A program made the translations under genes and the position numbers. From NCBI RefSeq assembly GCF_037902255.1, contig NZ_CP147990.1, positions 1,710,001 to 1,742,000 on the forward strand: a stretch of 32,000 bases of DNA, in the 5' to 3' direction. The notes beneath the pieces were generated by a model. The model was given only the letters and a program-made list of their open reading frames with translations, did not search any database and was not told the origin of the DNA. The DNA is from Candidatus Electrothrix sp. GW3-4 (GTDB lineage Bacteria; Desulfobacterota; Desulfobulbia; Desulfobulbales; Desulfobulbaceae). Shown here piece after piece: positions 1,136 to 31,319 of the stretch. Numbering within the stretch: the first letter of the stretch is position 1; each line of letters opens with the position of its first letter.

Positions 1136-1320
1136 AGTTTCGTAAGAAACTTGTTTTAGAGCAGGTTTAACATATATCCTTTCTGGTCAGAGCAGAACCA
1201 GAAAGTTGCAAAAGCCACAGCCGTCGTGAGGCGGTGTCGGAAAGCTACGGATCTCCAGGAGGAGACCGCCGGGTTGCCTGCTTTCACTTAACGCTCTATT
1301 GTAAAACCAGGAGGAATGTT

Positions 1321-6634: not shown

Positions 6635-9268
6635 ATGGACATCTCGACCAGGGCAATTCATTTTTCGCTGCACAAACCCAAGGTCGTTACCGCGATCATG
6701 GTTGTGCTTACCCTTATCGTTGGAGCCTTTATTGTTAAGGTGCATGTGGACACGGACCCGGAAAATATGCTCTCCGAGCATGAGGCGGTCCGGGTCTTTC
6801 ACGATCAGACCAAGAAGGAATTCACCCTCCATGATGTCGTGGTCCTGGGGGTGGTGAATGAGCATGACTCGGACGGGGTCTTTAATCCAGAGACCCTGCA
6901 ACGGGTCTTCACCCTGAGTAAATTCGCCGCCAACCTGGCAGATCCCGATGACCCGGAACGTCGGGTGGTCAGCCGGGACATCATTGCCCCGGATAATGTG
7001 GATAATATCCTCCAGGCCGGGCTCGGGCAGGTGCGCTTTGAATGGCTGATGAAGGAACCGCCCAAGACCCAGGAAGAGGCCCTGAAGATCCGGGATTATG
7101 CCCTGGCCAATCCCCTGCTCAAGGGGACCATGGTTTCCGAGGACGGCAAGGCCCTGGCCATCTACCTCCCTATCACCAAGAAGGATTTTGCCCATTCCGT
7201 GGCTGAGCAGCTTCGGGCCAAGATCGATGAGATCGGTGCAGGCAATGACGAATTCCATATCACGGGCCTGCCTGTGGCAGAGGATACCTTTGGCAAGGAG
7301 ATGTTTATCCAGATGGCGGTTTCCGCCCCCCTGGCCATGCTGATGATCTTCCTGCTCATGCTCTTTTTCTTTCGTAATCTCCAGCTGATCATCGCCCCGA
7401 TGATCATTGCTGTCTGTACCGTGATCGTGACCATGGGGATGCTTATCGGCACTGGCCACACCCTGCATATCATGAGCTCCATGATCCCCATCTTTATCAT
7501 GCCCATTGCGGTGGTGGATTCGGTCCATATCCTGTCGGAGTTTTTTGATGCCTATCAGCAGCGTAAGGACAGAAAGGCGACCCTGATTCATGTCATGGCC
7601 CATCTGTTCAAGCCCATGCTCTTTACCTCCCTGACCTCGGCAGCAGGTTTTGCCTCCCTGGCCTTTACCCCGATCCCGCCGGTCCAGGCCTTTGGTATCT
7701 TTGTTGCCCTGGGCATCCTGCTGGCCTGGCTGTTGACCATCATCTTTGTTCCTGCCTATGTGATGATGATGAGCGAACAGAGCTTGGAGAACTTTGGTGT
7801 TGATACCACAGACACCTCCCATGAGAACTCCCTGTTTAATCGTCATCTGCGCTGGATCGGCAAGACCTCCTCGGGTAAGCCATGGATGGTGATTATCATC
7901 AATATTGGTATCATGATCGTGGGGGTCGTTGGTATCCTGATGATCCAGGTCAACGATAACCCGGTCAAGTGGTTTAAGAAGAGCCATGAGATCCGGGTGG
8001 CGGATAAGGTCCTGAACAGTCACTTCGGTGGCACCTATGAGGCATACCTTATTTTAACCGGCAAGGTAGAGGAGATGAGCGTTGCCCAGGCCGCAGAACA
8101 GCTGAAAGGGAAACTCCAGACTGCCCTGCAGGATACCCCGGCCATCTTGACCTCTGCAATGGAGGATATTGAGCAGGCAGTTGCCGATACCAGGACTATT
8201 CAGGGCCTCCGAGATGCCCTGGCCCAGCTCTGGAATATGGAGCTTGACAATGCCCCGCAGGACGATGATACTGTGTACGATTCCTGGGGAAGAGCCCTGG
8301 ATAGCCTGGGGGGAATAGGTCCCCAGAAGGAGGTCTTCAAGCGTCCTGATGTGTTGCGCTACATCTCAGACCTGCAGGCGCACCTGGCCAAGGAAGGTGA
8401 CGTGGGAAAATCCAACACCGTGGCCGATGTGGTGAAGAAGGTGCATATGGAGCTGTTTGAGGGGGCCCTGGAACGATACACCATCCCGGATACGGTCAAT
8501 GCCGTGGCCCAGACCTTGATCTCCTATCAGAACAGTCATAAGCCCGATGACCTCTGGCATCTGGTGACCCCGGATTACAGCAAGGCCAATATCTGGTTGC
8601 AGCTGCGGAGCGGCGATAATGTGGACATGGAACGGGTGATTGAGGACATTGAGCAGTACTTTGCTGCCAATCCGCCGCCAGTGGAGATGAACCATGACTG
8701 GGCCGGTCTGACCTACATCAACGTGGTCTGGCAGGACAAGATGGTGAGCGGGATGCGCGACTCCTTCCTGTCCAGCTTTGCTGTGGTCTTCATCATGATG
8801 GCCTTTCTGTTCCGCTCCCCGACCTGGGGCCTGCTGGCCATGGTGCCGCTGACCTTCACTATCGGCTTTATTTACGGGGTGATCGGCCTGATCGGCAAGG
8901 ATTACGACATGCCGGTAGCGGTGCTCTCCTCCCTGGCTCTGGGCCTGGCTGTGGACTTTGCCATCCACTTCCTTCAGCGCACCAGGATGACTATGGCCAA
9001 GACCGGGGATTGGGGCGCGGCTATCCGGGATATGTTTGATGATCCGGCCCGGGCCATCCTGCGTAACATCATTGTTATCGCCATCGGCTTTACCCCGCTC
9101 TTGCTGGCACCGCTGGTTCCCTATCAGACCGTGGGAATCTTCCTGGCCACGATTATGCTCTATTCAGGTATGGCTACCTTGTGGATCCTTCCGGCCCTGT
9201 TGACTGTGATGAAGGGTTGGGTCTTTAAGAAGGAGTTGAAGGCCTTTGCGGAGAAGGAGGCAGATTAA
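6635..9268 (+). CDS. RND-superfamily (MMPL-like) exporter, 12-TM with two periplasmic loops
   Basis: AGGAGG precedes ATG 6635. The 877-aa protein has two hydrophobic TM bundles separated by large soluble loops, matching RND/MMPL architecture. LolA-like and OMP genes lie downstream. Confidence 0.85.
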   Translation: MDISTRAIHFSLHKPKVVTAIMVVLTLIVGAFIVKVHVDTDPENMLSEHEAVRVFHDQTKKEFTLHDVVVLGVVNEHDSDGVFNPETLQRVFTLSKFAANLADPDDPERRVVSRDIIAPDNVDNILQAGLGQVRFEWLMKEPPKTQEEALKIRDYALANPLLKGTMVSEDGKALAIYLPITKKDFAHSVAEQLRAKIDEIGAGNDEFHITGLPVAEDTFGKEMFIQMAVSAPLAMLMIFLLMLFFFRNLQLIIAPMIIAVCTVIVTMGMLIGTGHTLHIMSSMIPIFIMPIAVVDSVHILSEFFDAYQQRKDRKATLIHVMAHLFKPMLFTSLTSAAGFASLAFTPIPPVQAFGIFVALGILLAWLLTIIFVPAYVMMMSEQSLENFGVDTTDTSHENSLFNRHLRWIGKTSSGKPWMVIIINIGIMIVGVVGILMIQVNDNPVKWFKKSHEIRVADKVLNSHFGGTYEAYLILTGKVEEMSVAQAAEQLKGKLQTALQDTPAILTSAMEDIEQAVADTRTIQGLRDALAQLWNMELDNAPQDDDTVYDSWGRALDSLGGIGPQKEVFKRPDVLRYISDLQAHLAKEGDVGKSNTVADVVKKVHMELFEGALERYTIPDTVNAVAQTLISYQNSHKPDDLWHLVTPDYSKANIWLQLRSGDNVDMERVIEDIEQYFAANPPPVEMNHDWAGLTYINVVWQDKMVSGMRDSFLSSFAVVFIMMAFLFRSPTWGLLAMVPLTFTIGFIYGVIGLIGKDYDMPVAVLSSLALGLAVDFAIHFLQRTRMTMAKTGDWGAAIRDMFDDPARAILRNIIVIAIGFTPLLLAPLVPYQTVGIFLATIMLYSGMATLWILPALLTVMKGWVFKKELKAFAEKEAD

Positions 9269-9384: not shown

Positions 9385-9621
9385 ATGAGTGATAAAAGCA
9401 AGAAGGAATCGAATGATAATATGGTTTCTCTGGCTGAAAAAATGGCAGAAAACGCCCAAGGACTTGTTGCAGATTTTTTTGAATCCATACTGAGATTCAT
9501 GAAAGATGCCGCTCGCTGGTATGAAGATGCAAGCAAGAGGATACGTGAATATCTGCGACGTTTCTTTTTCGCCTTATTGCGATTTATGAGCGCTCTTGCC
9601 AAACAAAGCCTCTTTTCTTGA
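9385..9621 (+). CDS. small hypothetical alpha-helical protein (start uncertain; 9349 is also possible)
   Basis: GGGAGGG at 9367-9373 is followed by a 4-codon mini-ORF (ATG 9374, ATGATCTCGTCATGA). Its stop overlaps ATG 9385 in an ATGA junction. No family is recognised. An antisense ORF (9327-9650) competes for the same DNA. Confidence 0.3.
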   Translation: MSDKSKKESNDNMVSLAEKMAENAQGLVADFFESILRFMKDAARWYEDASKRIREYLRRFFFALLRFMSALAKQSLFS

Positions 9622-9624
9622 ACA

Positions 9625-9855
9625 GGAGCCCTTCTCTTTAAAAACGGCAAGGCACTTTCGTAAAAAGGAGACGTACATTTAAGAAAAGAAGCGCCCCTTT
9701 TTTGAATAGAGGCGTCTCTCTTTTAAAGAGAAGCTCCACTCTTTAAAAAAGAGGTCATACAATTTAAAAAAGGAGTCGTCCTCTTTAAAAAAGGACGGGT
9801 ACTTTTCTTAAGAGGAGTAGCCCTCTTTTAAAAAGTACGACCTCTTTTTTCAAAA
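9625..9855. repeat. tandem array of 11 degenerate 21-bp units (consensus about GGAG-N6-CTCTTT-AAAAAA)
   Basis: Direct reading in 21-nt steps shows no indel across 231 bp. A 12th unit starts at 9856 (GGACGAGG). No ORF of 60 aa or more covers the region. Confidence 0.9.
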
Positions 9856-9954
9856 GGACGAGGCAGAACAAGAACAGAAGAGGCCGCAAGATCAGGCGGA
9901 CAGAGCCTGTCGTTAAACAAAAAGGTTGATCAGAAAAAAGCAGGGAGAACGTTC

Positions 9955-10320
9955 ATGACAGAGGTTATCGCTATAATCGGAGCAACAGATAAACCGGAGC
10001 GCTATGCCAATAAGGCCATGCATGCCTTACGAAAACATGAGCACGAAGTGGTCCTGGTCAATCCCTTTAAGCAAGAGGTTGAGGGGCAGGCATGCCTTGA
10101 CTCTGTTGCTGACCACCATGACAAGATTGATACCGTGACTTTGTATGTCAACCCAAAGCGGTTTGAGGATCATATTGATGCGGTCATCAAAGCTAAGCCC
10201 ACGAGGGTGATTATGAATCCGGGCACAGAAGATGATGGGCACCAGCGAATTTTAGAAGAAGCCGGGATAGAGGTGGTTCGGGCCTGTACCTTGGTGTTGT
10301 TGTCCACGAATCAGTTTTAA
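9955..10320 (+). CDS. CoA-binding domain protein (YccU/YneT-like)
   Basis: IAIIGATDKPERYANKAMHALRKHEHEVVLVNP is a Rossmann-like CoA_binding_2 N-terminus. The protein is 121 aa. Confidence 0.8.
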   Translation: MTEVIAIIGATDKPERYANKAMHALRKHEHEVVLVNPFKQEVEGQACLDSVADHHDKIDTVTLYVNPKRFEDHIDAVIKAKPTRVIMNPGTEDDGHQRILEEAGIEVVRACTLVLLSTNQF

Positions 10321-10357: not shown

Positions 10358-11149
10358 ATGAAAAAAACAATAATCGCTGCATGCAGCCTGTTTGCCCTGC
10401 TGGTCACCACCCCAGTCATGGCAGAAGACGTGAATGTGGAAGAGGTGGTAAGCAAGGCCAATCTGGCCGCCTACTACGCCGGAGACGACGGTAAGGCAGA
10501 GGTCAATATGACCATCACCGACAGCCAGGGTCGGGAACGAACCCGCGAGTTCATCATTCTGCGCAAAGACAAGGAAGACGGCAAGGCGCAGTTCTTTTAC
10601 GTCTATTTCAAGAAGCCTTCAGATGTCAGCAAGATGGTTTTTATGGTCCATAAGCATGTGGACAAGGACGATGACCGCTGGATGTACCTGCCAGCCCTGG
10701 ACCTGGTCAAGCGTATTGCCGCCTCAGATAAGCGGACCTCCTTTGTTGGCAGTAACTTCATGTACGAGGATGTCTCAGGCCGTAACCTGGCAGAGGATAC
10801 CCGCGAATTGGTGGAGAGCAACGACACCCATTATGTGATCAAGAATACCCCTAAGAAGCCGGACGATGTGGAGTTTTCTTCTTACACCGTGCAGATCGAC
10901 AAGAAGACCTTCCTGCCAGTCAAGGCCGTGTATCTGGACAAGAATGGCAAGGAGTACCGCATCGTCGAGGCTACCAAAGTGGAAGAGATTGACGGCATTC
11001 CCACCGTGACCGAGTCCAAGGTAACGGACCTGGAAGCAGGAAGCCATACCGTGTCCAAGTTCAGCAATGTGAAATATAATATTGGTCTCAAGGAAGACAT
11101 CTTCACCGAGCGCTACCTGCGCCGTCCGCCGCGTGAGGCCCGTCGATAG
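10358..11149 (+). CDS. outer-membrane lipoprotein-sorting (LolA-like) periplasmic protein
   Basis: AGGAGG RBS and signal peptide MKKTIIAACSLFALLVTTPVMA/ED. The core DRWMYLPALDLVKRIAASDKRTSFVGSNFMYEDV is typical of the LolA_like family that accompanies RND/MMPL exporters. Confidence 0.75.
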   Translation: MKKTIIAACSLFALLVTTPVMAEDVNVEEVVSKANLAAYYAGDDGKAEVNMTITDSQGRERTREFIILRKDKEDGKAQFFYVYFKKPSDVSKMVFMVHKHVDKDDDRWMYLPALDLVKRIAASDKRTSFVGSNFMYEDVSGRNLAEDTRELVESNDTHYVIKNTPKKPDDVEFSSYTVQIDKKTFLPVKAVYLDKNGKEYRIVEATKVEEIDGIPTVTESKVTDLEAGSHTVSKFSNVKYNIGLKEDIFTERYLRRPPREARR

Positions 11150-11158
11150 GAGGATCGT

Positions 11159-12448
11159 ATGAAGAAAATAGCATTCATTGCATTATCTGCCCTGTTGGCC
11201 TGTCATGTTGATGTCGGGTCAGCTATGGCTGAAGAAGATATTTCGCTGACTGACCGACTCTACGATGATTACGGCATTGAGATGCTCGGCTTTGCTGAAA
11301 CCCGTTGGGGTGCCCGCTTAGTGGATGATGAGAACGAGGACAGCATGAGTATTGGTGAGGCCCGTGCTCAACTGGAGCTGACCCGCTATTTTGATGCCTT
11401 CACCCTCCAGTTTAAAGGTGATCTGCTGGCAGATGCGGTGACCGAGGAATTTGATGCAGATATCCGCAGCCTGAACGTGGCCTTTCGCCCCAGCGATGTC
11501 CTGGATGTCAAGATCGGACGGATGGTCTCCACCTGGGGAACCGGTGACCTGGTCTTTATCAATGATATGTTTCCCAAGGACTGGCAGTCCTTTTTCATCG
11601 GCAGGGATGACGAGTACTTGAAGCAGGCCTCTAACTCTCTCCGCACCGGCCTCTTTCTCGGTGATTACACCATTGACCTGGTCTACACCCCGCGTTTTCA
11701 GGGGTCTGAGTTTGTCAGCGGCGAGCGCTTGTCCTATTATAATCCCGGTGTGGGCCAGATTGTCGGTCAGAACAGGGTGATGGCAGACGACGCCCCGGAT
11801 GCGTATTTTGAGGACGATGAGACCTCGGTTCGTCTGTCCCGCCGTTTTGGTGGTGTGGAAACAGCCCTGTACGGCTATATGGGCTATTGGCAGGAGCCCG
11901 AGGGCATGGATGCCACCACAGGCAAGGCTATCTATCCCCGCCTCAATGTCTGGGGTGCCTCGGCCCGTTCACCCCTGCTCGGTGGTATCGGTAATGTCGA
12001 GCTGGGCTATTATGATTCCTTTGATGACGAGGATGGCCTGAATCCCTATATCCGGCCTTCGGAATATCGCTTCCTGGTCGGCTTTGAACGGGAGCTGGCC
12101 CATGAGCTCACTGGTGGCTTTCAGTACTATATGGAGGTCATTGATGAGTACGCAAATTATGAACAGACCGTTGCGCCAGGTATGAACGCACGGGATGAGT
12201 ATCGCCAGATGCTCACCATGCGCCTCACCAAGCTGATGATGCAGCAGACCCTGACCCTGTCCCTCTTTGTCTACTATTCACCTACGGATCAGGATGGCTA
12301 TGCCCGCCCAAAATTCCAGTATAAGTTAACCGACAACTGGCTGATTGATGGTGGCTTCAACCTGTTTTGGGGTGAGGATGAACATACCTTCTGGGGCAGG
12401 TTCCAGGATAACAGCAATGCCTTTGTCGGTCTGCGCTATAGTTTTTAG
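11159..12448 (+). CDS. putative outer-membrane beta-barrel protein
   Basis: AGGAGGA RBS and signal peptide ending SAMA/EE. The sequence shows alternating beta-strand-like patterns and a C-terminal aromatic residue (…GLRYSF), as in OMPs. It is 10 bp downstream of the LolA-like gene. Confidence 0.55.
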   Translation: MKKIAFIALSALLACHVDVGSAMAEEDISLTDRLYDDYGIEMLGFAETRWGARLVDDENEDSMSIGEARAQLELTRYFDAFTLQFKGDLLADAVTEEFDADIRSLNVAFRPSDVLDVKIGRMVSTWGTGDLVFINDMFPKDWQSFFIGRDDEYLKQASNSLRTGLFLGDYTIDLVYTPRFQGSEFVSGERLSYYNPGVGQIVGQNRVMADDAPDAYFEDDETSVRLSRRFGGVETALYGYMGYWQEPEGMDATTGKAIYPRLNVWGASARSPLLGGIGNVELGYYDSFDDEDGLNPYIRPSEYRFLVGFERELAHELTGGFQYYMEVIDEYANYEQTVAPGMNARDEYRQMLTMRLTKLMMQQTLTLSLFVYYSPTDQDGYARPKFQYKLTDNWLIDGGFNLFWGEDEHTFWGRFQDNSNAFVGLRYSF

Positions 12449-18205: not shown

Positions 18206-18282
18206 GCCGATATAGCTCAGCTTGGTAGAGCGGCTGATTCGTAATCAGTAGGTCTCCGGTTCAAGTCCGGATATCGGCTCCA
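18206..18282 (+). tRNA. tRNA-Thr (anticodon CGT), CCA encoded
   Basis: Hand-folded cloverleaf: acceptor GCCGATA/TATCGGC, D arm GCTC/GAGC, anticodon arm GCTGA-TTCGTAA-TCAGT, T arm TCCGG-TTCAAGT-CCGGA, discriminator T, then CCA. Confidence 0.9.
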
Positions 18283-18488: not shown

Positions 18489-20347
18489 GGCATGCTTCAT
18501 ATCCACCCAAAAGTAGTTGACACTTTTTTTTAATACAATGCGGCGAAGACGCACCAATACATATCACCGCTGTCACTTTCTCAGAGTTGATTAACGGCTT
18601 CTTAACTGAAGATCAGGAACCGTTGATGTATAATTTCAGGCCGCTGCCGAGAAAAATAGAGGGTCTTTTTCCTCAATCAGGTCAAATAGCAGCTCAGTCC
18701 AGTCTTTTTCCTGCTTTTTACCCGTCAAAATCTCCATCGGTGTTTTCTTGACTCGTTTTCCCGCACGGTATCGCCTGTTATTATGATAAAATGCGATCAG
18801 ATTCAAGGTGTTCTGGTTCACCTGTCCCCGTGAGGTATTCAGATACGGACGAATGACGGAGTTGATACATTCGACCATGGCCGAACTCTGTACAATTGTG
18901 TCCAACTCGTTGTATACACGATCTTTGATAATTTCAAAATCTTCCTGAAGATACCCTACGGCGAATTCAAGATGCCTCTGTTCTCTGTCCGCGCATCTCT
19001 TACGGCGATCCGCCTTTTTTGCTTTGATCACTGCTTTATGATGCTGCCATGCCGAACAGAGCGACGACAGCGCGTTATGATTGATCGGCAATTTTTCGAG
19101 TTCTTCCCTGACCTCGAGGGCTACAACGAAATAATTCAGAAGATTCGGCAGGATATTTTTTATTCCGTCGATTGCTTTGTTGATTTTTTCATTGCCGAGA
19201 GTTTCAATCATCTCAAGAGCTGCCTGAATGTTGCCTTCCGCCTGCTGACGATTCCGCAGTTGGCCGTCGCAGCAGAACGGGTTCAATTCATTGATAATAC
19301 ATCGGTATAGATAAAAAAAGTTATCATACAGCGCCACGGCCTTCCGCGCTTCGCTGCGTGCTTTTTCATAGAGTTCGGTTCGTTTGCGGATAACCGCCTT
19401 CGTTCGTGCAGAAGCAATTTTTCCTTCGCGGTTATACTCCTCCGTAATAGCTTTATAAGCCGATTTTTCTAGTTGTTCCAACCGACTTCCGAGACGATAT
19501 GCAACAGCGTGAAAAGTGTCTGGCTGCCTCATGATGACACCTGAAAAAAGTTCATCGTGAGCCGCGCACAGCCCGGATCCTTCATCGGTGACGAGATAAA
19601 TCGCCTCAATTCCATTATTTTCAAGGCAGATCCAATGCTTTTTCCATTCTTCAGCACGTCGTTTTTCGGCGAGTTCTATCTTTAAAATCGCGGAGCTGAT
19701 CGGATCGACAGTGATTAGAATAGGTACACCGCCGGAAAAGATTTCATCGCTCAGAAAGACAACCCGCAAATCATTGTCTTCAAGCCTCAGCTCAGGGGGA
19801 ACAAGCGAGCCTATATGATTTAAATATGTGCTAACAGTACCTTGAGATGAGAAGCGTAGGCCGATGCGGTTCATTATCGCCACAATAGATCCGATACCGC
19901 ATTTCCCCTCAAGTCGTAATGAAGCTATCATTTCAACAGCTTCTCTTTTGTTTTCAGTATCGGCAGGTTGAACGGGCGGTCCGAGCGCAAGTTCAACAAT
20001 TTCCTCGAAAACCGCCAAGGTGTCATAGATAAACGTCCTGGAAACATTGTAATATTTCGATAATGCGGTTACCGTGCCCCATAGACCGAAAATTTTAGCG
20101 CAATACGCTTCATAAACGATTTGTAGTCGATCGAAAGTTGCTAACTCAGGGCGACGAAGAAATTTATTTCCGAAAATATTGCTCGCGTTATCGGGGACGG
20201 GCACTTGAGGTACGAGAGAAAACATAAGGCGATGTTGGTTCAATTTGGCTGAGGATTATTTGCCATTATAATAGCTGAACCAAGCAGCTTGTCGCAACTT
20301 TATGAATAACTTTCTGTACAAGTGTCAACCCGGATATGAAGGATGCC
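18489..20347 (-). mobile_element. complete insertion sequence (1859 bp), family unassigned
   Basis: The terminal inverted repeats are GGCATGCTTCATATCC...GTTGACACTT (18489-18525, with a 7-8 nt internal insertion) and the reverse complement of 20319-20347 (GGCATCCTTCATATCCGGGTTGACACTTG). The 8-bp direct repeat TCATTTGT flanks them at 18481-18488 and 20348-20355. There is a single transposase ORF, and the element is more AT-rich than its flanks. GG ends, an 8-bp duplication and the size are ISL3-like, but I cannot assign the protein to a family. Confidence 0.85.
18636..20243 (-). CDS. IS transposase (DDE-type, inferred)
   Basis: This 535-aa ORF fills the IS. It has an N-terminal HTH-like region and candidate acidic catalytic contexts FLSDEIF, LVTDEGSG and MVECINSVIRP. 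The TTG at 20243 or the ATG at 20225 could be the start. Confidence 0.75.
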   Translation of the reverse strand: MNQHRLMFSLVPQVPVPDNASNIFGNKFLRRPELATFDRLQIVYEAYCAKIFGLWGTVTALSKYYNVSRTFIYDTLAVFEEIVELALGPPVQPADTENKREAVEMIASLRLEGKCGIGSIVAIMNRIGLRFSSQGTVSTYLNHIGSLVPPELRLEDNDLRVVFLSDEIFSGGVPILITVDPISSAILKIELAEKRRAEEWKKHWICLENNGIEAIYLVTDEGSGLCAAHDELFSGVIMRQPDTFHAVAYRLGSRLEQLEKSAYKAITEEYNREGKIASARTKAVIRKRTELYEKARSEARKAVALYDNFFYLYRCIINELNPFCCDGQLRNRQQAEGNIQAALEMIETLGNEKINKAIDGIKNILPNLLNYFVVALEVREELEKLPINHNALSSLCSAWQHHKAVIKAKKADRRKRCADREQRHLEFAVGYLQEDFEIIKDRVYNELDTIVQSSAMVECINSVIRPYLNTSRGQVNQNTLNLIAFYHNNRRYRAGKRVKKTPMEILTGKKQEKDWTELLFDLIEEKDPLFFSAAA

Positions 20348-21047: not shown

Positions 21048-22985
21048 ATAGATGTCACCCCCGCATGGGGGGCGACAAAAATGATTTTTGACGTATCAGA
21101 TAATAACCTTGTTTCAATCCACGCCCCCGCATGGGGGGCGACTCAGCTACATACTGAGCATAGGCAACTTCTATAGGTTTCAATCCACGCCCCCGCATGG
21201 GGGGCGACAGGGCAGTACCTGAAAAATCCAGCCGCTTACGGTGTTTCAATCCACGCCCCCGCATGGGGGGCGACGCCGGACTTACACCGGTCACTCTCTT
21301 CTTGCCCGGTTTCAATCCACGCCCCCGCATGGGGGGCGACTAAGTTTAACCATCTTGAGAATTCTTCTCTTTTGTTTCAATCCACGCCCCCGCATGGGGG
21401 GCGACCCACGCCTTAACCTCTTGCGTTATATTATCGTTTGTTTCAATCCACGCCCCCGCATGGGGGCGACAAGGTCCAAGAGATCACCCTCAAGCAGGCC
21501 CAGGTTTCAATCCACGCCCCCGCATGGGGGGCGACCAACCAAGCCATCAAAAACATGTAGTGATTGCATGTTTCAATCCACGCCCCCGCATGGGGGGCGA
21601 CGCGTATTCGGCTGCGGAAGCAGGTTTCCACAACCGGTTTCAATCCACGCCCCCGCATGGGGGGCGACGAGCGGTAAACCACGTCTCAGCACTCATCAAT
21701 TGTTTCAATCCACGCCCCCGCATGGGGGGCGACTGGCGGGGCGTTTAGGTTGGTCGCCGCCGAAGCTGAGTTTCAATCCACGCCCCCGCATGGGGGCGAC
21801 GCCTCCCCTGACAACGTGGTACACCGAATGATCTTGTTTCAATCCACGCCCCCGCATGGGGGCGACGAGAATGTTCCTCACCCTCACAAAATTCATATTT
21901 TTGTTTCAATCCACGCCCCCGCATGGGGGGCGACCAATAATATCACCCTCTCCAAGAGAGATTAGGCGTGTTTCAATCCACGCCCCCGCATGGGGGGCGA
22001 CGCACTGATTAAGGGTATCAGGTTAGCGGGCACAGTTTCAATCCACGCCCCCGCATGGGGGGCGACCTGTTTCCTTTGCTACCAACCGCCACTTTCGGCG
22101 TTTCAATCCACGCCCCCGCATGGGGGGCGACGCAGATACTCTTTTTCCGTGCCTGTGTATTGCTCTGTTTCAATCCACGCCCCCGCATGGGGGCGACCTT
22201 TGTGTTTTTGGGCTTTCTTCATAGCCTGCCCGTTTCAATCCACGCCCCCGCATGGGGGGCGACAAGTCCAAGACATTTCATAATGTCTTTGATGTTTGGT
22301 TTCAATCCACGCCCCCGCATGGGGGGCGACAGGTACCGATATTGGTGGTGGTTGGTCTAAATATGTTTCAATCCACGCCCCCGCATGGGGGGCGACATTC
22401 ACTTCTAGTTTATTCTCTGGATTTGGAATGTTTCAATCCACGCCCCCGCATGGGGGGCGACACGGTTTAAGTCAAGATCGGTTTCGAGTATGGACGTTTC
22501 AATCCACGCCCCCGCATGGGGGGCGACGGGAAAATATTGTTTACCAGGATGTAAACGGAAGGTTTCAATCCACGCCCCCGCATGGGGGGCGACGGGCTGC
22601 CCAAGATGGTCGGGGCGTAAAATTATCTGTTTCAATCCACGCCCCCGCATGGGGGGCGACGTAGAACCAAATGTACTGAGGATAAGATTGCATGTTTCAA
22701 TCCACGCCCCCGCATGGGGGCGACGGACTGCCCCGGCCAGTCATCACGCTGGCACCTGTTTCAATCCACGCCCCCGCATGGGGGGCGACAGACGGCCTGA
22801 CGGTTGATACACTCGTTTTGCCGGGTTTCAATCCACGCCCCCGCATGGGGGCGACCTCTGCCCCAGAAAAAGTTGTTGAGGGGGAGGGTTTCAATCCACG
22901 CCCCCGCATGGGGGGCGACATACCTACTGCCAGACTCTGATACCTTGCCGCCAGTTTCAATCCACGCCCCCGCATGGGGGGCGAC
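21047..22985 (-). CRISPR. type I-C CRISPR array: 29 intact repeats, 1 decayed terminal repeat, 29 unique spacers (32-36 nt)
   Basis: The plus-strand repeat is GTTTCAATCCACGCCCCCGCATGGGGGGCGAC (32 nt). Its reverse complement GTCGCCCCCCATGCGGGGGCGTGGATTGAAAC ends in ATTGAAAC, as in I-C repeats, so transcription runs on the minus strand from the cas2-proximal leader. The first repeat is at 22954-22985. The trailer repeat at 21047-21076 keeps only CCCCCGCATGGGGGGCGAC. Confidence 0.97.
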
Positions 22986-23369
22986 TGTCAAGCTGTAACA
23001 TACTGTTACCGCTTGACGAATTACTGCATTTGCGCGAACCGCATTTTTCGGACGCGGTCGCAAAGAACAAAAAGCGTTCTTTTTAATAAAAACCTCCTGA
23101 TTTCAATATGTGCGAACCTCCCGTGTTTTTCTGTCTGTTAGAGGTTCGCGCAAGCGTTTTCGGGGAATTCCGTTGATTCGATCCACCTGTCATACTACTT
23201 TCTTCCGATGTCGTCAATCGGACAAGATCGGACAAACACAGGCAACTCTGTCGAGGGAGTGTCGGGAGAGCTGAAAGCCGCATTTCCGCACCCGGAGTTG
23301 AAACACCGGGCTATTAGCGGCAGTCCCTCCGGGACACTGTTTCCCGGAAGCCCCGCCCCGGAGGGGCGA
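22986..23369 (-). promoter_or_regulatory. CRISPR leader region (between the cas2 terminator and repeat 1)
   Basis: This call rests on its position between cas2 and the first repeat. It has an AT-rich core (23060-23100) and several inverted repeats. I could not define a promoter confidently. Confidence 0.6.
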
Positions 23370-23399
23370 TTGAAAATAGCCCACCGTTTTAACGGTGGG
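23370..23399 (-). terminator. candidate intrinsic terminator of the cas operon
   Basis: On the minus strand, CCCACCG-TTAAAA-CGGTGGG (23380-23399) is followed by CTATTTTCAAT. It begins 8 nt after the cas2 stop. Confidence 0.55.
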
Positions 23400-23846: not shown

Positions 23847-24875
23847 TTAATGCCAGATCACTGGTGGATAGCCGTCCAGATCCCCCCGAAGAAAACGGGC
23901 CAGCAACAGGGCCTGGGTATGAAAAAATAGGCCAAGGGGCATCTTCTCTTCCAAAAAGGGATGCTGAAGCACATCCTGCTTTCGCTCCTGATAGGTGGTC
24001 AGCAGGGTCTTGCGGGCCTTGTCTTTCATTCGCACCCCGCCGCTTGCGCTGACAACAAAATCCTTGGCCTGCAACTGGCCCCGGTTGATTAGAGATAGGG
24101 CTATACGATCGGCCATAGGGCGGAATTCCTCCATCATATCCAGGGCCAGTCCGGATCGTCCTGGTCGGTCCCGATGAAGAAAGCCCACTGCCGGATCAAG
24201 GCCGGTGCATTCCAGGGCGGAACGCACATCGTGCATAACCAGGGTATAGAGAAAGGAGAGCAGGCAGTTGACCAGGTCCAGGGGTGGTCTCCTGCTGCGC
24301 TGACGAAAGAAAAAGTCCTCTTTATGATGTATGATGAGATGATCAAAGGCAGAAAAATAGATATGGGCCGCATCTCCTTCTGTGCCGCGCACCTTATCCA
24401 GGGGCAGGTCCCGGCCCAGAGATTTGAGCAGGCCAGTAAGGTGATTCACCGCCTTGTTCATCGCATTGGTGTCTATTTTGTCCGCGTGATCACGCAACGT
24501 CCGGTTCAGGAGATAGCGACAGTTGGCGACCTTACCGTTGATAAAGGCCCTGGCCATCAGCGCCGAAAATGTCGGATCATCGGCCCGACGATACTGCTCC
24601 CGCCGCAGGAGGACATTGCCGGAAACCGGCCCCTGCACCCGTGCCAGAAAGCGCCCGTGTTCGGTCAGAAAACTGATTGTCACATCCCGTTCCGCACAAA
24701 ATCCCAGGAGAAACGGGCTGCATCCCACATTGCCAAAGCAGACAACCCCATTCAGGGTATGGACAGGCAGGCGCAGCCGGACCTTTTTTTCCACCCGGAC
24801 AGCCACGGTCTCGCCTTCCTTGGCCAGATAGGCCCCCTGGGTGGTGACAAAGAGCGTATTGAGATGTTTTTTCAT
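23847..24875 (-). CDS. cas1: CRISPR-associated integrase Cas1 (I-C type)
   Basis: The start is ATG 24875 (MKKHLNTLFVTTQGAYLAKEGETV), which overlaps the cas4 stop in an ATGA junction. The track ORF running to 25151 is an upstream extension. The protein is 343 aa. Confidence 0.95.
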   Translation of the reverse strand: MKKHLNTLFVTTQGAYLAKEGETVAVRVEKKVRLRLPVHTLNGVVCFGNVGCSPFLLGFCAERDVTISFLTEHGRFLARVQGPVSGNVLLRREQYRRADDPTFSALMARAFINGKVANCRYLLNRTLRDHADKIDTNAMNKAVNHLTGLLKSLGRDLPLDKVRGTEGDAAHIYFSAFDHLIIHHKEDFFFRQRSRRPPLDLVNCLLSFLYTLVMHDVRSALECTGLDPAVGFLHRDRPGRSGLALDMMEEFRPMADRIALSLINRGQLQAKDFVVSASGGVRMKDKARKTLLTTYQERKQDVLQHPFLEEKMPLGLFFHTQALLLARFLRGDLDGYPPVIWH

Positions 24876-25504
24876 GATTCTGTCATCCTGGTCAGATAGT
24901 TTCGCACCTGCCCCTTTTTTCCTACAGCAGCCTTGGGCAGGCAGGTATCGATAAAAGAACAACTTTCGCAACGACGATTGTACTGGGGGGGTGGGGTAGT
25001 GGTGCCGGAGAGGAGTTCGTGCAGACGGGCAGTAGTCTCCTCCGTGACCTTGCGCAGGCGATCGTTGATCTGTACCGCTGTCCGTCGTTTTTTCTGGCCG
25101 TAATAGAGCGCACCTTCCGGGATCGTGCAGTCCAGCATCTCTTCCAGACACAGGGCCTGGGCGCAGAGCTGGACCTGGTCTGTATCATCCTTTTTCGGGC
25201 GGCCCCGTTTATACTCCACTGGAAAGGGCTGCCAAAAGCCGTCTTCCTGCGGATGCATCTCTACGATATCCGCCCTGCCGGAGAGCCCCAGGCGCAGGGA
25301 GCGGATGGGCATATCGTACTCCACCCGGACCGTGCTGCGGGAATCACTGGCTGCGCTATGGACCCGCTCGTGCAGGACCCGGCCTTCAGCAGTGAAGCGG
25401 TTTTCTGTCCATGCCTGCTCCAGATGAATCAGGGCGCATTGGCGCGGACAGAAGAGGAGATGCTGGAGCGCGGAGAGCATGAGGAGGTCGTCTTCGGAAT
25501 ACAT
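24872..25504 (-). CDS. cas4: CRISPR-associated exonuclease Cas4 (RecB-like, Fe-S cluster)
   Basis: GGAGGA sits 7 nt before ATG 25504 (MYSEDDLLMLSALQHLLFCPRQCAL). There is an N-terminal Cys and a C-terminal CESCSFIDTC cluster. Confidence 0.9.
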   Translation of the reverse strand: MYSEDDLLMLSALQHLLFCPRQCALIHLEQAWTENRFTAEGRVLHERVHSAASDSRSTVRVEYDMPIRSLRLGLSGRADIVEMHPQEDGFWQPFPVEYKRGRPKKDDTDQVQLCAQALCLEEMLDCTIPEGALYYGQKKRRTAVQINDRLRKVTEETTARLHELLSGTTTPPPQYNRRCESCSFIDTCLPKAAVGKKGQVRNYLTRMTES

Positions 25505-25618
25505 GGTGTTTCCTCCGGGGCGTTGGTGCCCAAACATGGTCAGGCGTATTGGTCTGATATCGCGCAGCCGGGTGCGCAGGGCTGCGCTGAGGGTAGGGGG
25601 CTTCTTTCGATAAATTGC

Positions 25619-26499
25619 TTACAAGCGTTCCTGCAAGGTCACCCCGTTGGGAACGTTTTTCGTATCAATACTCACTTCGTAATCGCTGAATTTTCGCGGC
25701 GGTTTTGAGGTGTCTGAACGGTTGATCGTGACCAATTCAAAAAGCTTATGGGCCGGGGCATTACCCAGTTCGCTGTCGTGTTTAAAGACAATGAGCCTTT
25801 GCGCCGCCATTTCACCACGGGCCGCAGAGCGGTCATGATCGAACATGTTGATCAGTGCATCCCAGAGTAGTTGCAGGTCGTCCTCAGAGAAACCGGTGTT
25901 TCCGGCCAGCGGTGCGGAAACATAGCCGTGGGCCCGATAGAGGCCGTAAGGGATATAGGTTTTCCGGCCCATTGTCCGATTGCCGCTGTCTTTGCCTTCT
26001 TTGGCCTGCGCTGCTGCTTCTTTTTCCGTCTCAACAGCCATTCGGGTGATGCTGGCCTCCAACGGGACAACCGGATCAATGCTCTCAGCAAAATTGAACT
26101 GCACCGGCCCGCGTACTTGGCCGCAGTTATTTTTCGTTGTGGACATCACCGCACCGAAGGTCCGTACGTCAAAGAAGTTGGCGCACATCCAGTCGCGGGC
26201 TTTGCTCACCTTATCTTTCTTTTCCTCTTTGACAGCTTCATAAGCTGGGGTTCTGCGCTCGGCAAGCACCGCCCTTTCCTGGATATAGATATTATAGTTC
26301 TTTTGGTACCGTTCCTCTCTTTCACTGAGTATTTCCACAAAATTACGGACTTTGCGTTTCAGGCATACATCCGTGACAATACCGTGACTGGTTTCCGGGT
26401 CAATGCGTGGCAGGTTACCGGAGTCCGGGTCTCCGTTGGGATTGCCGTTTTTGACATCAAAAAGGTACACGAATTCATAGCGGTTCTGAATATGCTCAC

Positions 26500-26503
<4 letters not shown>
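25619..26503 (-). CDS. cas7: type I-C Cascade backbone subunit Cas7c (Csd2)
   Basis: [49 protein letters not shown] is the characteristic Csd2 N-terminus. Its ATG overlaps the cas8c stop (ATGA). Confidence 0.92.
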
Positions 26504-31089
<4,586 letters not shown>

Positions 31090-31319
31090 AGAATTGTGGG
31101 AGGAGGTTGAGAGGAGTGGATAATAAGTAAGAAATGCAAAGAAATGTAATTTATATAAATACAACCATCGGGAAATATTGCAAGATATTTTTATTCTCCC
31201 AAGAGGAGAACGACCCGATGCGCGAATAGCACTTTTGAGTGTGCGGAATATCCTTTCTCCTGAGAGGATGGCATGTTAGTTTCACGACCTGAAATCCATA
31301 TTGTTGAAAGTGAAAAACT

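What the first reader, a model, noticed from the sequence alone, without database searches (positions are those of the whole stretch)
9625..9855. Eleven exactly phased copies of a degenerate 21-bp unit in a non-coding gap
Cutting 9625-9855 every 21 nt gives these units:
- GGAGCCCTTCTCTTTAAAAAC
- GGCAAGGCACTTTCGTAAAAA
- GGAGACGTACATTTAAGAAAA
- GAAGCGCCCCTTTTTTGAATA
- GAGGCGTCTCTCTTTTAAAGA
- GAAGCTCCACTCTTTAAAAAA
- GAGGTCATACAATTTAAAAAA
- GGAGTCGTCCTCTTTAAAAAA
- GGACGGGTACTTTTCTTAAGA
- GGAGTAGCCCTCTTTTAAAAA
- GTACGACCTCTTTTTTCAAAA

A 12th unit starts with GGACGAGG. The sequence drifts between units, but the register never slips, which argues for selection on spacing rather than recent slippage.

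Twenty-one bp is two helical turns, so every T-tract/A-tract junction lies on the same face of the helix. That suggests either an intrinsically bent segment or a one-sided array of binding sites. Plasmid iterons have comparable unit lengths.

If transcribed, the array would instead present about 11 purine boxes (GGAG/GGAC/GAGG), each preceded by an A-run. Many units can form small hairpins across the TTTAAA centre, for example GTCCT-CTTTAAAAA-AGGAC. This is loosely reminiscent of protein-titrating sRNAs with reiterated GGA motifs, although here the GGA tends to fall in the stems rather than the loops.

No ORF of 60 aa or more covers the array. I know of no described element that matches it.
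Basis: seen in the sequence. Interest (0 to 1): 0.7.

Follow-up and report, generated by a model that had tools for sequence, protein, structure and literature searches.

The report
Phase-locked 21-bp palindromic repeat array
A cable bacterium carries about a dozen head-to-tail 21-bp units in a non-coding gap just upstream of an operon; three related lineages keep the array in exactly the same register, so it is most likely a row of protein-binding sites on one face of the DNA, but the binding protein and the function are unknown.

Summary
Window 9625-9855 (Candidatus Electrothrix sp. GW3-4) holds 11 exactly phased 21-bp units plus a degenerate 12th. An independent short-read assembly gives the identical sequence.

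Each unit is a variable 8-bp core bounded by G and C, followed by a T-run and then an A-run. The conserved part is a 13-bp palindrome, CTnTT-N3-AAnAG, centred every 21 bp.

Orthologous arrays occur in two other Electrothrix lineages (L267, L002), gap-free and unit for unit at about 27% divergence. Five other relatives lack it.

The palindrome skeleton changes about 2.5 times less often than other positions. The conservation profile is dyad-symmetric. Length differences come only as whole units.

Tested and not supported:
- intrinsic curvature
- conserved RNA structure
- protein coding
- a GGA/CsrA-type sponge RNA
- plasmid iterons or a partition centromere (no rep or par genes)
- any Rfam family

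Best reading (confidence about 0.37): a one-sided array of dyad-symmetric protein-binding sites on duplex DNA, about 100 bp upstream of the CoA-binding/LolA-like operon.

Main rival: a functionless minisatellite in a hypervariable cassette region.

The truncated small ORF upstream results from a secondary deletion.

The parts
9625..9855 (.). Eleven exactly phased 21-bp units. Consensus: G-R-A-G-nnnn-n-C-T-Y-T-T-T-W-A-A-A-A-A, i.e. a 10-bp G...C core plus an 11-bp T-run/A-run linker.
   Evidence: Orthologous unit for unit with L267 276-506 and L002 3181-3411.
9604..9624 (.). Unit 0, the left flank (CAAAGCCTCTTTTCTTGAACA). It is conserved in all three lineages. In this genome it also supplies the last codons and the TGA stop (9619-9621) of the truncated small ORF.
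   Evidence: 14/21 identical to L267 and 18/21 to L002.
9856..9876 (.). Degenerate 12th unit (GGACGAGGCAGAACAAGAACA). It keeps G1 but has lost the T/A linker. In L002 the same positions still look like array units.
9697..9856 (.). The stretch holding the seven perfect copies of the 13-bp palindrome CTnTT-N3-AAnAG: 9697-9709, 9718-9730, 9739-9751, 9781-9793, 9802-9814, 9823-9835, 9844-9856. One-mismatch copies lie at 9634, 9655, 9676 and 9760.
   Evidence: 7 in the array and 2 elsewhere in 32 kb, against 0.64 expected. One-mismatch copies.
9877..9954 (+). Non-repeat spacer between the array and the CoA-binding gene. Blocks conserved with L267: GAAGARGCCGCAAG and AAACAAAA.G.TTGATCA.AAAAA.GCAGGGAGAA. 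It includes the Shine-Dalgarno GGGAG at about 9942-9946.
   Evidence: u13 17/21, u15 17/21, u16 19/21 identical.
9385..9621 (+). Small ORF of 78 aa, truncated relative to its 121-137-aa homologues, which carry a hydrophobic C-terminal half read as two TM helices. It is fused to the array's left flank by a secondary deletion.
   Evidence: L002 has both the intact gene and the array.
9955..10320 (+). CoA_binding_2 gene. It is the first gene downstream of the array here and in L267, and is followed by LolA_like (10358-11149) and a 429-aa ORF with a sub-threshold DUF1302 match (11159-12448).

Best explanation
The array is a non-coding DNA element made of 11-12 contiguous sites, at least 14-15 in one relative. 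Each site is a 13-bp dyad-symmetric sequence, CTnTT-N3-AAnAG, and the sites are separated by a free 8-bp GC-rich spacer.

Centres are exactly 21 bp apart, which is two turns of B-DNA, so all sites face the same side of the helix.

The most likely mechanism is that a dimeric DNA-binding protein, or a higher oligomer, occupies the palindromes cooperatively. This would build a long one-sided nucleoprotein complex about 100 bp upstream of the CoA-binding/LolA-like/DUF1302-like operon. The complex would either control or insulate transcription of that operon from the hypervariable toxin-antitoxin cassette region upstream, or act as an architectural site.

Shown:
- the periodicity and the dyad symmetry
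- orthology in three lineages
- slower change of the palindrome skeleton
- strict conservation of register
- a constant position next to the CoA-binding gene in the two lineages where the downstream gene is visible

Inferred:
- that a protein binds, which protein it is, and what effect it has on transcription
For: 1. Periodicity far above chance. The 13-mer palindrome occurs 7 times in the array, against 0.64 expected in the whole window.

2. Orthologous arrays in L267 and L002 are in exact register with no indel over u0-u11, at about 27% pairwise divergence. L002 differs by whole extra units only.

3. Three-lineage comparison. The eight skeleton positions are invariant at 70 of 88 sites, the core at 42 of 88, and the other linker positions at 27 of 55.

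4. On the GW3-4 branch no skeleton change goes away from the consensus and three go toward it. Yet that branch is the longer one in the adjacent gene: 18-24 changes against 10-12 for L267.

5. G1 and C10 are conserved at 20 of 22 sites, against 32 of 51 for the other core G/C sites (p = 0.02).

6. Conservation between orthologues is mirror-symmetric about the linker centre (r = 0.82, permutation p = 0.0016). A symmetric dimer on duplex DNA would give this pattern.

7. The RNA and coding alternatives fail their tests.

8. The same architecture, C-T5A5-G palindromes at 21-bp spacing, recurs beside integrase and excisionase-type genes of Bacteroidales mobile elements. Arrays of protein-binding sites would be expected there, though this was not tested.
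Against: - No candidate binding protein is encoded nearby.
- No promoter-like site was found on the gene strand in or after the array.
- Only three lineages carry the array. At least five other Electrothrix relatives have the same operon without it, so it is dispensable.
- The skeleton is eroding in L267 (77 of 88 matches) and L002 (71 of 88), against 84 of 88 in GW3-4.
- Blocks of units have turned over: u4-u8 in GW3-4 and u9-u11 in L002.
- The rest of the GW3-4 genome could not be searched, so a dispersed repeat family is not excluded.
- The rate argument rests on only three sequences.
Confidence: 0.37

Rival explanations
1. A functionless minisatellite (VNTR-like tandem repeat). It arose by duplication of a 21-bp segment in a recombination-prone cassette region and persists by chance. 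Its regularities would be leftovers of the founding unit.
For: - Restricted to a few lineages and absent from five relatives.
- Copy number differs by whole units.
- Blocks of units have turned over.
- The skeleton decays in L267 and L002.
- It sits in a hypervariable stretch full of TA cassettes.
- Overall divergence (27%) is no lower than at four-fold degenerate sites of the neighbouring gene (21%).
Against: - Cores are near-random, while five columns are invariant in all 11 units. Uniform neutral decay from one founder unit cannot give that.
- Skeleton sites vary at 18 of 88, against 74 of 143 elsewhere.
- GW3-4 has 0 changes away and 3 toward the skeleton on the faster-evolving branch.
- There are no off-register indels in homopolymer-rich DNA in three lineages.
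- Gene conversion would homogenise the cores too, and this is not seen.
Confidence: 0.25
2. An RNA element. The array would be transcribed with the operon (or antisense) and act as a structured leader, a protein or ribosome sponge (A-rich plus GGAG boxes), or a processing/stability element.
For: - Same orientation as the flanking genes, so it is probably transcribed.
- Low folding energy: z = -5.3 on the plus strand and -6.9 on the minus strand against dinucleotide shuffles.
- AAAAAGGAG boxes resemble Shine-Dalgarno sites (seen in the sequence).
- Weak excess of alignment-fold energy on the minus strand with three sequences (3.5% of null alignments fold at least as well).
Against: - Shuffles that keep the unit weight matrix fold as well (plus z = -0.6, minus z = -1.9). 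The low energy therefore follows from the palindromic consensus.
- Real substitutions preserve structure no better than randomly placed ones.
- The three-sequence consensus has an unfavourable covariation term (+3.9) and many broken pairs.
- The null is biased in favour of the real data, because real substitutions are clustered in blocks.
- GGA is not conserved in the orthologues.
- No Rfam family matches; only far sub-threshold miRNA-hairpin hits.
- No terminator or promoter delimits a discrete RNA.
Confidence: 0.12
3. Remnant cis-site of a lost mobile element: replication iterons, or a partition centromere of the sopC/parC type, left behind after integration and decay.
For: - The unit length and contiguous arrangement match iterons. 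Tandem repeats that each contain a palindrome resemble sopC of plasmid F (established knowledge).
- The surrounding region collects mobile cassettes.
Against: - No rep, par, integrase or relaxase gene in the 32-kb window apart from a distant ISL3-like ORF.
- No DnaA-box cluster.
- No similarity to 72,556 plasmids or 50,697 phages.
- Fixed position next to a conserved chromosomal operon in the two lineages where the downstream gene is visible.
- The skeleton is actively kept in GW3-4, which is not expected of a dead site.
Confidence: 0.1
4. Fossil, or recoded version, of a protein-coding heptad repeat (G/E-x-x-L-F-K-K). It would derive from a duplicate of the small membrane-protein gene.
For: - The period is 7 codons.
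- Frame +0 of the array is in frame with both the upstream ORF (9385) and the CoA-binding ORF (9955).
- The left flank resembles the middle of the small gene.
- Positions congruent to 1 mod 3 are the best conserved (68 of 77 against 102 of 154, p = 0.00025).
- L267 has only 2 stops in that frame.
Against: - Every frame on both strands has stops in both GW3-4 and L267.
- No frame shows an excess of synonymous differences (11 of 48 at best).
- In that frame the conserved class would be codon position 1, with position 2 the most variable. This is not a protein-like pattern.
- The conceptual translation has no relative among 5.8 billion proteins.
- The same heptad appears on both strands simply because TTT/AAA and CTC/GAG are complementary codons.
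Confidence: 0.08
5. An intrinsically curved DNA segment: phased A-tracts that act through shape alone.
For: One A-tract per two helical turns is in phase (seen in the sequence).
Against: - Wedge-model end-to-end/contour ratio is 0.90 for GW3-4 and 0.91 for L267. This equals their dinucleotide shuffles and lies at the 18th percentile of windows in the 32 kb.
- The controls behave as published (A5N5 0.53, A4T4 0.45, T4A4 0.99).
- The T-run before each A-run cancels the bend.
Confidence: 0.03

Closest known systems
sopC centromere of plasmid F (12 tandem 43-bp repeats, each with a 16-bp palindrome bound by SopB), and parC of R1 (10 x 11-bp iterons bound by ParR). From established knowledge, not tested here.
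   Same: A contiguous array of about a dozen phased units. Each unit carries a dyad-symmetric site, the rest of the unit is less constrained, and the sites lie on one helical face.
   Different: The unit is 21 bp. There are no parA/parB/parR genes nearby. The location is chromosomal, upstream of a transport operon. The units are much more degenerate.
Plasmid and phage replication iterons (R6K, pPS10, RK2, lambda ori; 17-22-bp units at 21-23-bp spacing). From established knowledge.
   Same: Unit length, and head-to-tail arrangement at about two helical turns.
   Different: Iterons are usually asymmetric and closely alike. They lie next to their rep gene, an AT-rich unwinding element and DnaA boxes. 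None of these is present.
Operators of Lrp/AsnC (feast/famine) regulators: 13-bp sites of the form abcdeWWWedcba, bound by dimers that assemble into octamers or cylinders (PMC2715240).
   Same: A 13-bp palindrome with 5-bp half-sites around a 3-bp, mostly A/T, centre. Binding is by oligomers to several regularly spaced sites.
   Different: Published half-sites end in A before the centre (for example CGAAA-WWW-TTTCG). Here the order is T-run then A-run (CTnTT-N3-AAnAG). No Lrp-family gene was found in the window. Eleven contiguous sites are unprecedented for this family. The resemblance is one of format only.
REP/BIME arrays of enterobacteria. From established knowledge.
   Same: Intergenic tandem arrays of short imperfect palindromes within operons.
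   Different: REPs are dispersed in hundreds of copies. No other unit occurs in this 32-kb window, and none was found in the 78,074 bases of Electrothrix loci held here beyond the orthologous arrays themselves and two isolated 13-mer matches. REP units are longer and alternate in orientation.
Unannotated Bacteroidales element found here: 5-7 phased 21-bp units, C-T5A6-G linkers, cores GATCAAGAGC / GATAACCGCC / GAACAAGAGC.
   Same: Identical geometry: a 10-bp G...C core, an 11-bp T-run/A-run linker, and a 21-bp period, readable on both strands.
   Different: Its cores are conserved across many contigs. There are only 5-7 units. It sits beside tyrosine integrase, HTH_17 and DUF6047 genes at the edge of mobile elements. 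There is no sequence homology to the Electrothrix array.

Membership tests
Plasmid/phage iterons | Tandem direct repeats of 17-22 bp at about 21-23-bp spacing | tested here: met
   11 units at exactly 21 bp.
Plasmid/phage iterons | Adjacent gene for the cognate initiator (Rep) | tested here: not met
   Pfam on the larger ORFs of the window finds MMPL, CoA_binding_2, LolA_like, peptidases, cytochromes and Cas proteins, but no Rep.
Plasmid/phage iterons | Neighbouring DnaA boxes and AT-rich unwinding element | tested here: not met
   TTWTNCACA occurs twice in 32 kb (6074, 6997), as expected by chance, and not near the array.
Partition centromere (sopC/parC type) | Array of phased repeats, each carrying a protein-binding site (often palindromic) | tested here: met
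   13-bp palindrome every 21 bp.
Partition centromere (sopC/parC type) | Adjacent parA/parB or parM/parR operon | tested here: not met
   None in the window.
CsrB/RsmZ-type protein-titrating sRNA | Many GGA motifs, mostly in hairpin loops, conserved among relatives | tested here: not met
   GGA starts 7 of 12 units here but only 2 of 11 in L267 and 2 of 11 in L002. Hairpins are not conserved. No Rfam hit.
CsrB/RsmZ-type protein-titrating sRNA | Discrete transcript with its own promoter and terminator | tested here: inconclusive
   Consensus scans find no promoter on the plus strand and only one minus-strand terminator-like hairpin, which is not conserved in L267. No expression data were available.
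REP/BIME dispersed palindromes | Many dispersed copies per genome | tested here: inconclusive
   No other unit in the 32-kb window. In the 78,074 bases of Electrothrix loci held here, the 13-mer matches outside the orthologous arrays are two isolated ones. The remaining 4.6 Mb of the genome could not be searched.
Intrinsically curved DNA (phased A-tracts) | Predicted or measured curvature above background | tested here: not met
   Wedge-model ratio 0.90 against shuffles 0.885 +/- 0.067. Controls were reproduced.
Protein-coding heptad repeat | Open reading frame and a protein-like substitution pattern | tested here: not met
   Stops in all six frames in both GW3-4 and L267; no synonymous excess; no homologous protein.
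Type III toxin-antitoxin antitoxin RNA (ToxI-like repeats) | Near-identical tandem repeats of about 36 nt directly upstream of an endoribonuclease toxin gene | tested here: not met
   Units are 21 nt and divergent. The downstream gene is CoA_binding_2, which is conserved without the array in many relatives.
Lrp/AsnC operator format (abcdeWWWedcba) | 13-bp palindrome with an A/T centre, bound by a family member encoded in the genome | not testable with these tools
   The format fits, but the half-site orientation differs. No regulator gene is in the window, and binding cannot be tested.

The most novel reading that the evidence does not exclude
The array, together with the look-alike arrays in Bacteroidales mobile elements and in contig L181, represents an undescribed and widespread class of cis-element. 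In this class, C-TnAn-G palindromes are locked at two-helical-turn spacing with free 8-bp spacers. They would nucleate a straight, one-sided protein filament (a chromosomal 'rail') used for insulation, silencing or DNA organisation. In cable bacteria it would be kept by selection next to an envelope-transport operon.
Probability: 0.12. Interest if true: 0.7.

Novelty: new variant of a known kind. Interest (0 to 1): 0.5.

Why it matters
Cable bacteria cannot yet be grown in pure culture, and almost nothing is known about their gene regulation or chromosome organisation.

Here is a sequence element whose register has been kept exactly through about 27% divergence, and whose palindrome skeleton is still being maintained in one lineage. 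That gives a concrete 231-bp bait for finding a DNA-binding protein.

If the same geometry in Bacteroidales mobile elements reflects a shared binding mode, the element would point to a general way of building long one-sided nucleoprotein complexes.

If instead it is a neutral minisatellite, it is a useful caution. A palindromic unit alone produces impressive folding energies, heptad 'peptides' in all six frames, and an apparent codon periodicity.

Tried and rejected
1. Long-range RNA structure. Apparent core-to-core complementarity (u1/u6, u3/u5, u7/u11; a 58-nt inverted repeat) and z-scores of -5 to -7 looked promising. Shuffles that keep the weight matrix fold equally well. Two- and three-sequence tests show no structure-preserving substitutions.

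2. In-situ origin by recent duplication of the TM-coding part of the small gene. This was rejected once L002 showed the intact gene and the array together. The truncation in GW3-4 is a secondary deletion.

3. Coding, readthrough or frameshift ideas (in-frame with both ORFs; A-AAA-AAG slippery motifs). These were rejected by stops in every frame, the lack of a synonymous excess, and the absence of any homologous protein.

4. Curvature. Rejected by the wedge model.

5. Whole-collection pattern scans.
- The strict three-unit pattern in metagenome contigs also hit its limit and was dominated by the Bacteroidales element.
- Neither scan returned Electrothrix loci, so they say nothing about copy number in cable bacteria.

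6. My first lag-21 detector (threshold 0.55) missed the degenerate L002 array. It was found only through the 13-mer palindrome search.

7. Similarity to plasmids and phages: nothing significant.

8. Literature search for 21-bp repeat arrays gave nothing relevant.

9. NikR, CodY, Fis, IHF, sigma-54, LytTR and ArgR motifs were compared by eye, and none fits.

10. The ORF fragment upstream of the L267 array looked ParE/RelE-like by eye, but Pfam gave no hit.

Full report
**Source and context.** The window comes from Candidatus Electrothrix sp. GW3-4, a cable bacterium. This follows from the source name attached to the exact protein matches.

The array lies in a 333-nt gap between two features. 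Upstream is a 78-aa ORF (9385-9621), which follows an MMPL/RND transporter gene (6635-9268). Downstream is a CoA_binding_2 gene (9955-10320), followed by a LolA_like gene and a 429-aa ORF with a sub-threshold DUF1302 match. All of these are on the plus strand.

- Identity at lag 21 is 0.615. The maximum over 1000 shuffles is 0.394.
- G1, C10, T13, A18 and A19 are invariant.
- A four-unit skeleton pattern matches 13 times in the array and never in shuffled windows.
- No other unit exists in the 32 kb.
- Tandem Repeats Finder sees only 2.8 copies.
- A Logan assembly of a different run (L264) is identical across 9385-10320, so the array is real.

**Anatomy.** The unit matches its own weight matrix on both strands in phase, so it is dyad-symmetric. 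It can be read two ways:

- as a 10-bp G...C core plus an 11-bp T-run/A-run linker; or
- more informatively, as a 13-bp palindrome CTnTT-N3-AAnAG followed by a free 8-bp spacer.

The palindrome runs from C10 of one unit to G1 of the next. Seven perfect copies lie in the array, against 0.64 expected in the whole window.

**Relatives, first pass.** Homologues of the small ORF in other Electrothrix are 121-137 aa and carry a hydrophobic C-terminal half that I read as two TM helices. In GW3-4, homology stops where the array begins. This first suggested that the array had replaced coding sequence.

Syntenic loci of five relatives have the MMPL...CoA-binding...LolA-like arrangement but no array (L254, L257, L260, L261, L268; CoA-binding protein 75-86% identical). 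Instead they carry a variable run of small same-strand ORFs, many of them toxin-antitoxin parts.

**Orthologous arrays.** The closest CoA-binding homologue (L267, 88% aa identity) has an orthologous array directly upstream of its gene. Window 9601-9954 aligns to L267 252-605 without a gap, unit for unit, at 72.7% identity.

A search for the 13-mer then revealed a third array at the end of contig L002 (3157-3488). It is again in exact register over u0-u11, with at least three additional whole units.

L002 also carries the intact 137-aa small gene, 2 kb upstream. The array's left flank resembles the middle of that gene. Hence the truncated ORF in GW3-4 is best explained by a deletion between these two similar segments. 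The array did not arise inside the gene. (This is an inference.)

**Evidence of constraint.**

- In a three-lineage parsimony count over u1-u11, the eight skeleton positions are invariant at 70 of 88 sites. Core positions are invariant at 42 of 88, and the other linker positions at 27 of 55.
- The GW3-4 branch has no skeleton change away from the consensus and three toward it. L267 has 4 away and L002 has 10 away.
- Yet in the adjacent CoA-binding gene the GW3-4 branch is the longer one (18-24 changes against 10-12, with four different outgroups).
- G1 and C10 are conserved at 20 of 22 sites, against 32 of 51 for other core G/C sites (p = 0.02). Core G/C and A/T sites diverge equally, so mutation bias does not explain the pattern.
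- The conservation profile between orthologues is mirror-symmetric about the linker centre (r = 0.82, permutation p = 0.0016).
- No indel occurs over u0-u11 in any of the three lineages despite the T and A runs. The only length difference is whole units.
- I could not calibrate the expected indel rate on other intergenic DNA of these genomes, so that argument rests on general knowledge of indel-to-substitution ratios.

Overall divergence of the array (27%) is not below that of four-fold degenerate sites in the neighbouring gene (21%, n = 47). Selection, if present, therefore acts on the skeleton and the spacing, not on the cores.

**Rejected readings.**

*Curvature.* A dinucleotide wedge model was used, with Bolshoy-Trifonov parameters recalled from memory. 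It was validated on A5N5 (0.53), A4T4 (0.45) and T4A4 (0.99). It gives 0.90 for the array and 0.91 for L267, the same as their shuffles.

*RNA structure.*
- Low MFE on both strands is reproduced by shuffles that keep the weight matrix.
- Real substitutions are no more structure-preserving than randomly placed ones.
- With three sequences the covariation term is unfavourable and many pairs break.
- The marginal minus-strand signal is expected from block-wise conservation.
- Rfam gives nothing at gathering thresholds and only far sub-threshold miRNA-hairpin hits.

*GGA sponge.* GGA is not conserved in the orthologues.

*Coding.*
- All six frames read xxLFKK-like heptads, because TTT/AAA and CTC/GAG are complementary codons.
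- All frames carry stops in both GW3-4 and L267.
- No frame has a synonymous excess.
- The conceptual translation has no relative among 5.8 billion proteins.
- That the array frame is in phase with both flanking ORFs remains unexplained; I treat it as coincidence or relic.

*Iterons or centromere.* There are no rep or par genes and no DnaA-box cluster, and no significant similarity to plasmids or phages.

**Best explanation.** The array is a phased, one-sided row of dyad-symmetric protein-binding sites on duplex DNA, about 100 bp upstream of the CoA-binding/LolA-like operon. It would act as an operator, insulator or architectural element.

The protein is unknown, and binding is inferred rather than shown. 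The 13-bp 5-3-5 format recalls Lrp/AsnC operators (PMC2715240), but the half-site orientation differs and no such gene is nearby.

Confidence is about 0.37. The main rival (0.25) is a functionless minisatellite in a recombination-prone region. It is supported by the restricted distribution, the unit turnover and the erosion of the skeleton in two of three lineages.

**Wider occurrence.** They did show the same geometry elsewhere:

- an abundant Bacteroidales element of 5-7 units, next to integrase, HTH_17 and DUF6047 genes;
- a roughly 16-unit array with variable cores in contig L181.

These are analogues in architecture, not homologues.

**Verdict.** This is a real, conserved, phase-locked non-coding array that matches no described family. 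Its function is unresolved. I file it as a new variant of the known kind 'tandem arrays of protein-binding sites', with moderate interest.

Noticed in passing
window 1204-1281: c-di-GMP-I riboswitch (Rfam, 50.7 bits). It overlaps the listed GTG start (1234) of a 616-aa DUF7507 protein, which is followed by a 970-aa M6-peptidase/FN3 protein.
   Followed up: no
window 21242-21470, 22365-22733, 23354-23399, 23847-31164: Two CRISPR arrays (repeat GTTTCAATCCACGCCCCCGCATGGGGGGCGAC) and a type I-C cas operon on the minus strand: Cas1, Cas7, Csd1, a Cas3 helicase and a separate HD ORF. An Rfam Acido-Lenti-1 hit lies between the second array and cas1.
   Followed up: partly
L257 1067-3824; L002 1420-3079; L261 1381-3991: Between the MMPL and CoA-binding genes, Electrothrix relatives carry a hypervariable run of small same-strand ORFs. 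Many are toxin-antitoxin parts (Unstab_antitox, DUF4258, MqsA-like, DUF4160, DUF2442, PIN_3), plus RNase_H. The stretch looks like a cassette array or integration hot spot.
   Followed up: partly
window 9385-9621: The 78-aa ORF is a truncated version of a 121-137-aa Electrothrix-specific protein with no Pfam family, whose C-terminal half is hydrophobic (read as two TM helices). L002 keeps the full gene and also a second, array-linked remnant of its middle part.
   Followed up: yes
L147 516-615; L125 3396-3495; L136 8005-8125; L195 3159-3250 and dozens more: An abundant Bacteroidales element (one hit to Phocaeicola) of 5-7 phased 21-bp units with C-T5A6-G linkers and conserved cores GATCAAGAGC / GATAACCGCC / GAACAAGAGC. 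It lies beside tyrosine integrases, HTH_17 and DUF6047 genes. No annotation was found.
   Followed up: partly
L181 5128-5470: An array of about 16 units at a 21-bp period, with variable GC-rich cores and T-run/A-run linkers. It is intergenic, after an MFS transporter gene in an unidentified GC-rich organism. This is the closest architectural twin of the Electrothrix array.
   Followed up: partly
L007 1303-1407, 4449-4574, 5690-5794: Clostridiales bacterium UBA3678 has three arrays of near-identical 21-bp units (GAACCGTCCC-CTTTCAAAAAA) within 8 kb, in both orientations.
   Followed up: no
window ~18500-18850: The wedge model predicts the strongest intrinsic curvature of the whole window here (ratio 0.60). 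The site is next to the tRNA gene at 18206-18279 and overlaps the 3' end of a minus-strand ORF (18636-20243) with a weak ISL3-transposase match.
   Followed up: no
L001 (starts at window 9888): One short-read assembly of the same organism breaks 32 nt after the array, while another (L264) spans it. The cause was not determined; coverage, secondary structure and population heterogeneity are all possible.
   Followed up: no
window 9385-10320: The small ORF, frame +0 of the array and the CoA-binding ORF all share one reading frame, interrupted by five stops (TGA 9619, then stops in u2, u4, u5 and u10). L267 has only two stops in that frame within the array. No coding signal was found, so the coincidence remains unexplained.
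   Followed up: yes
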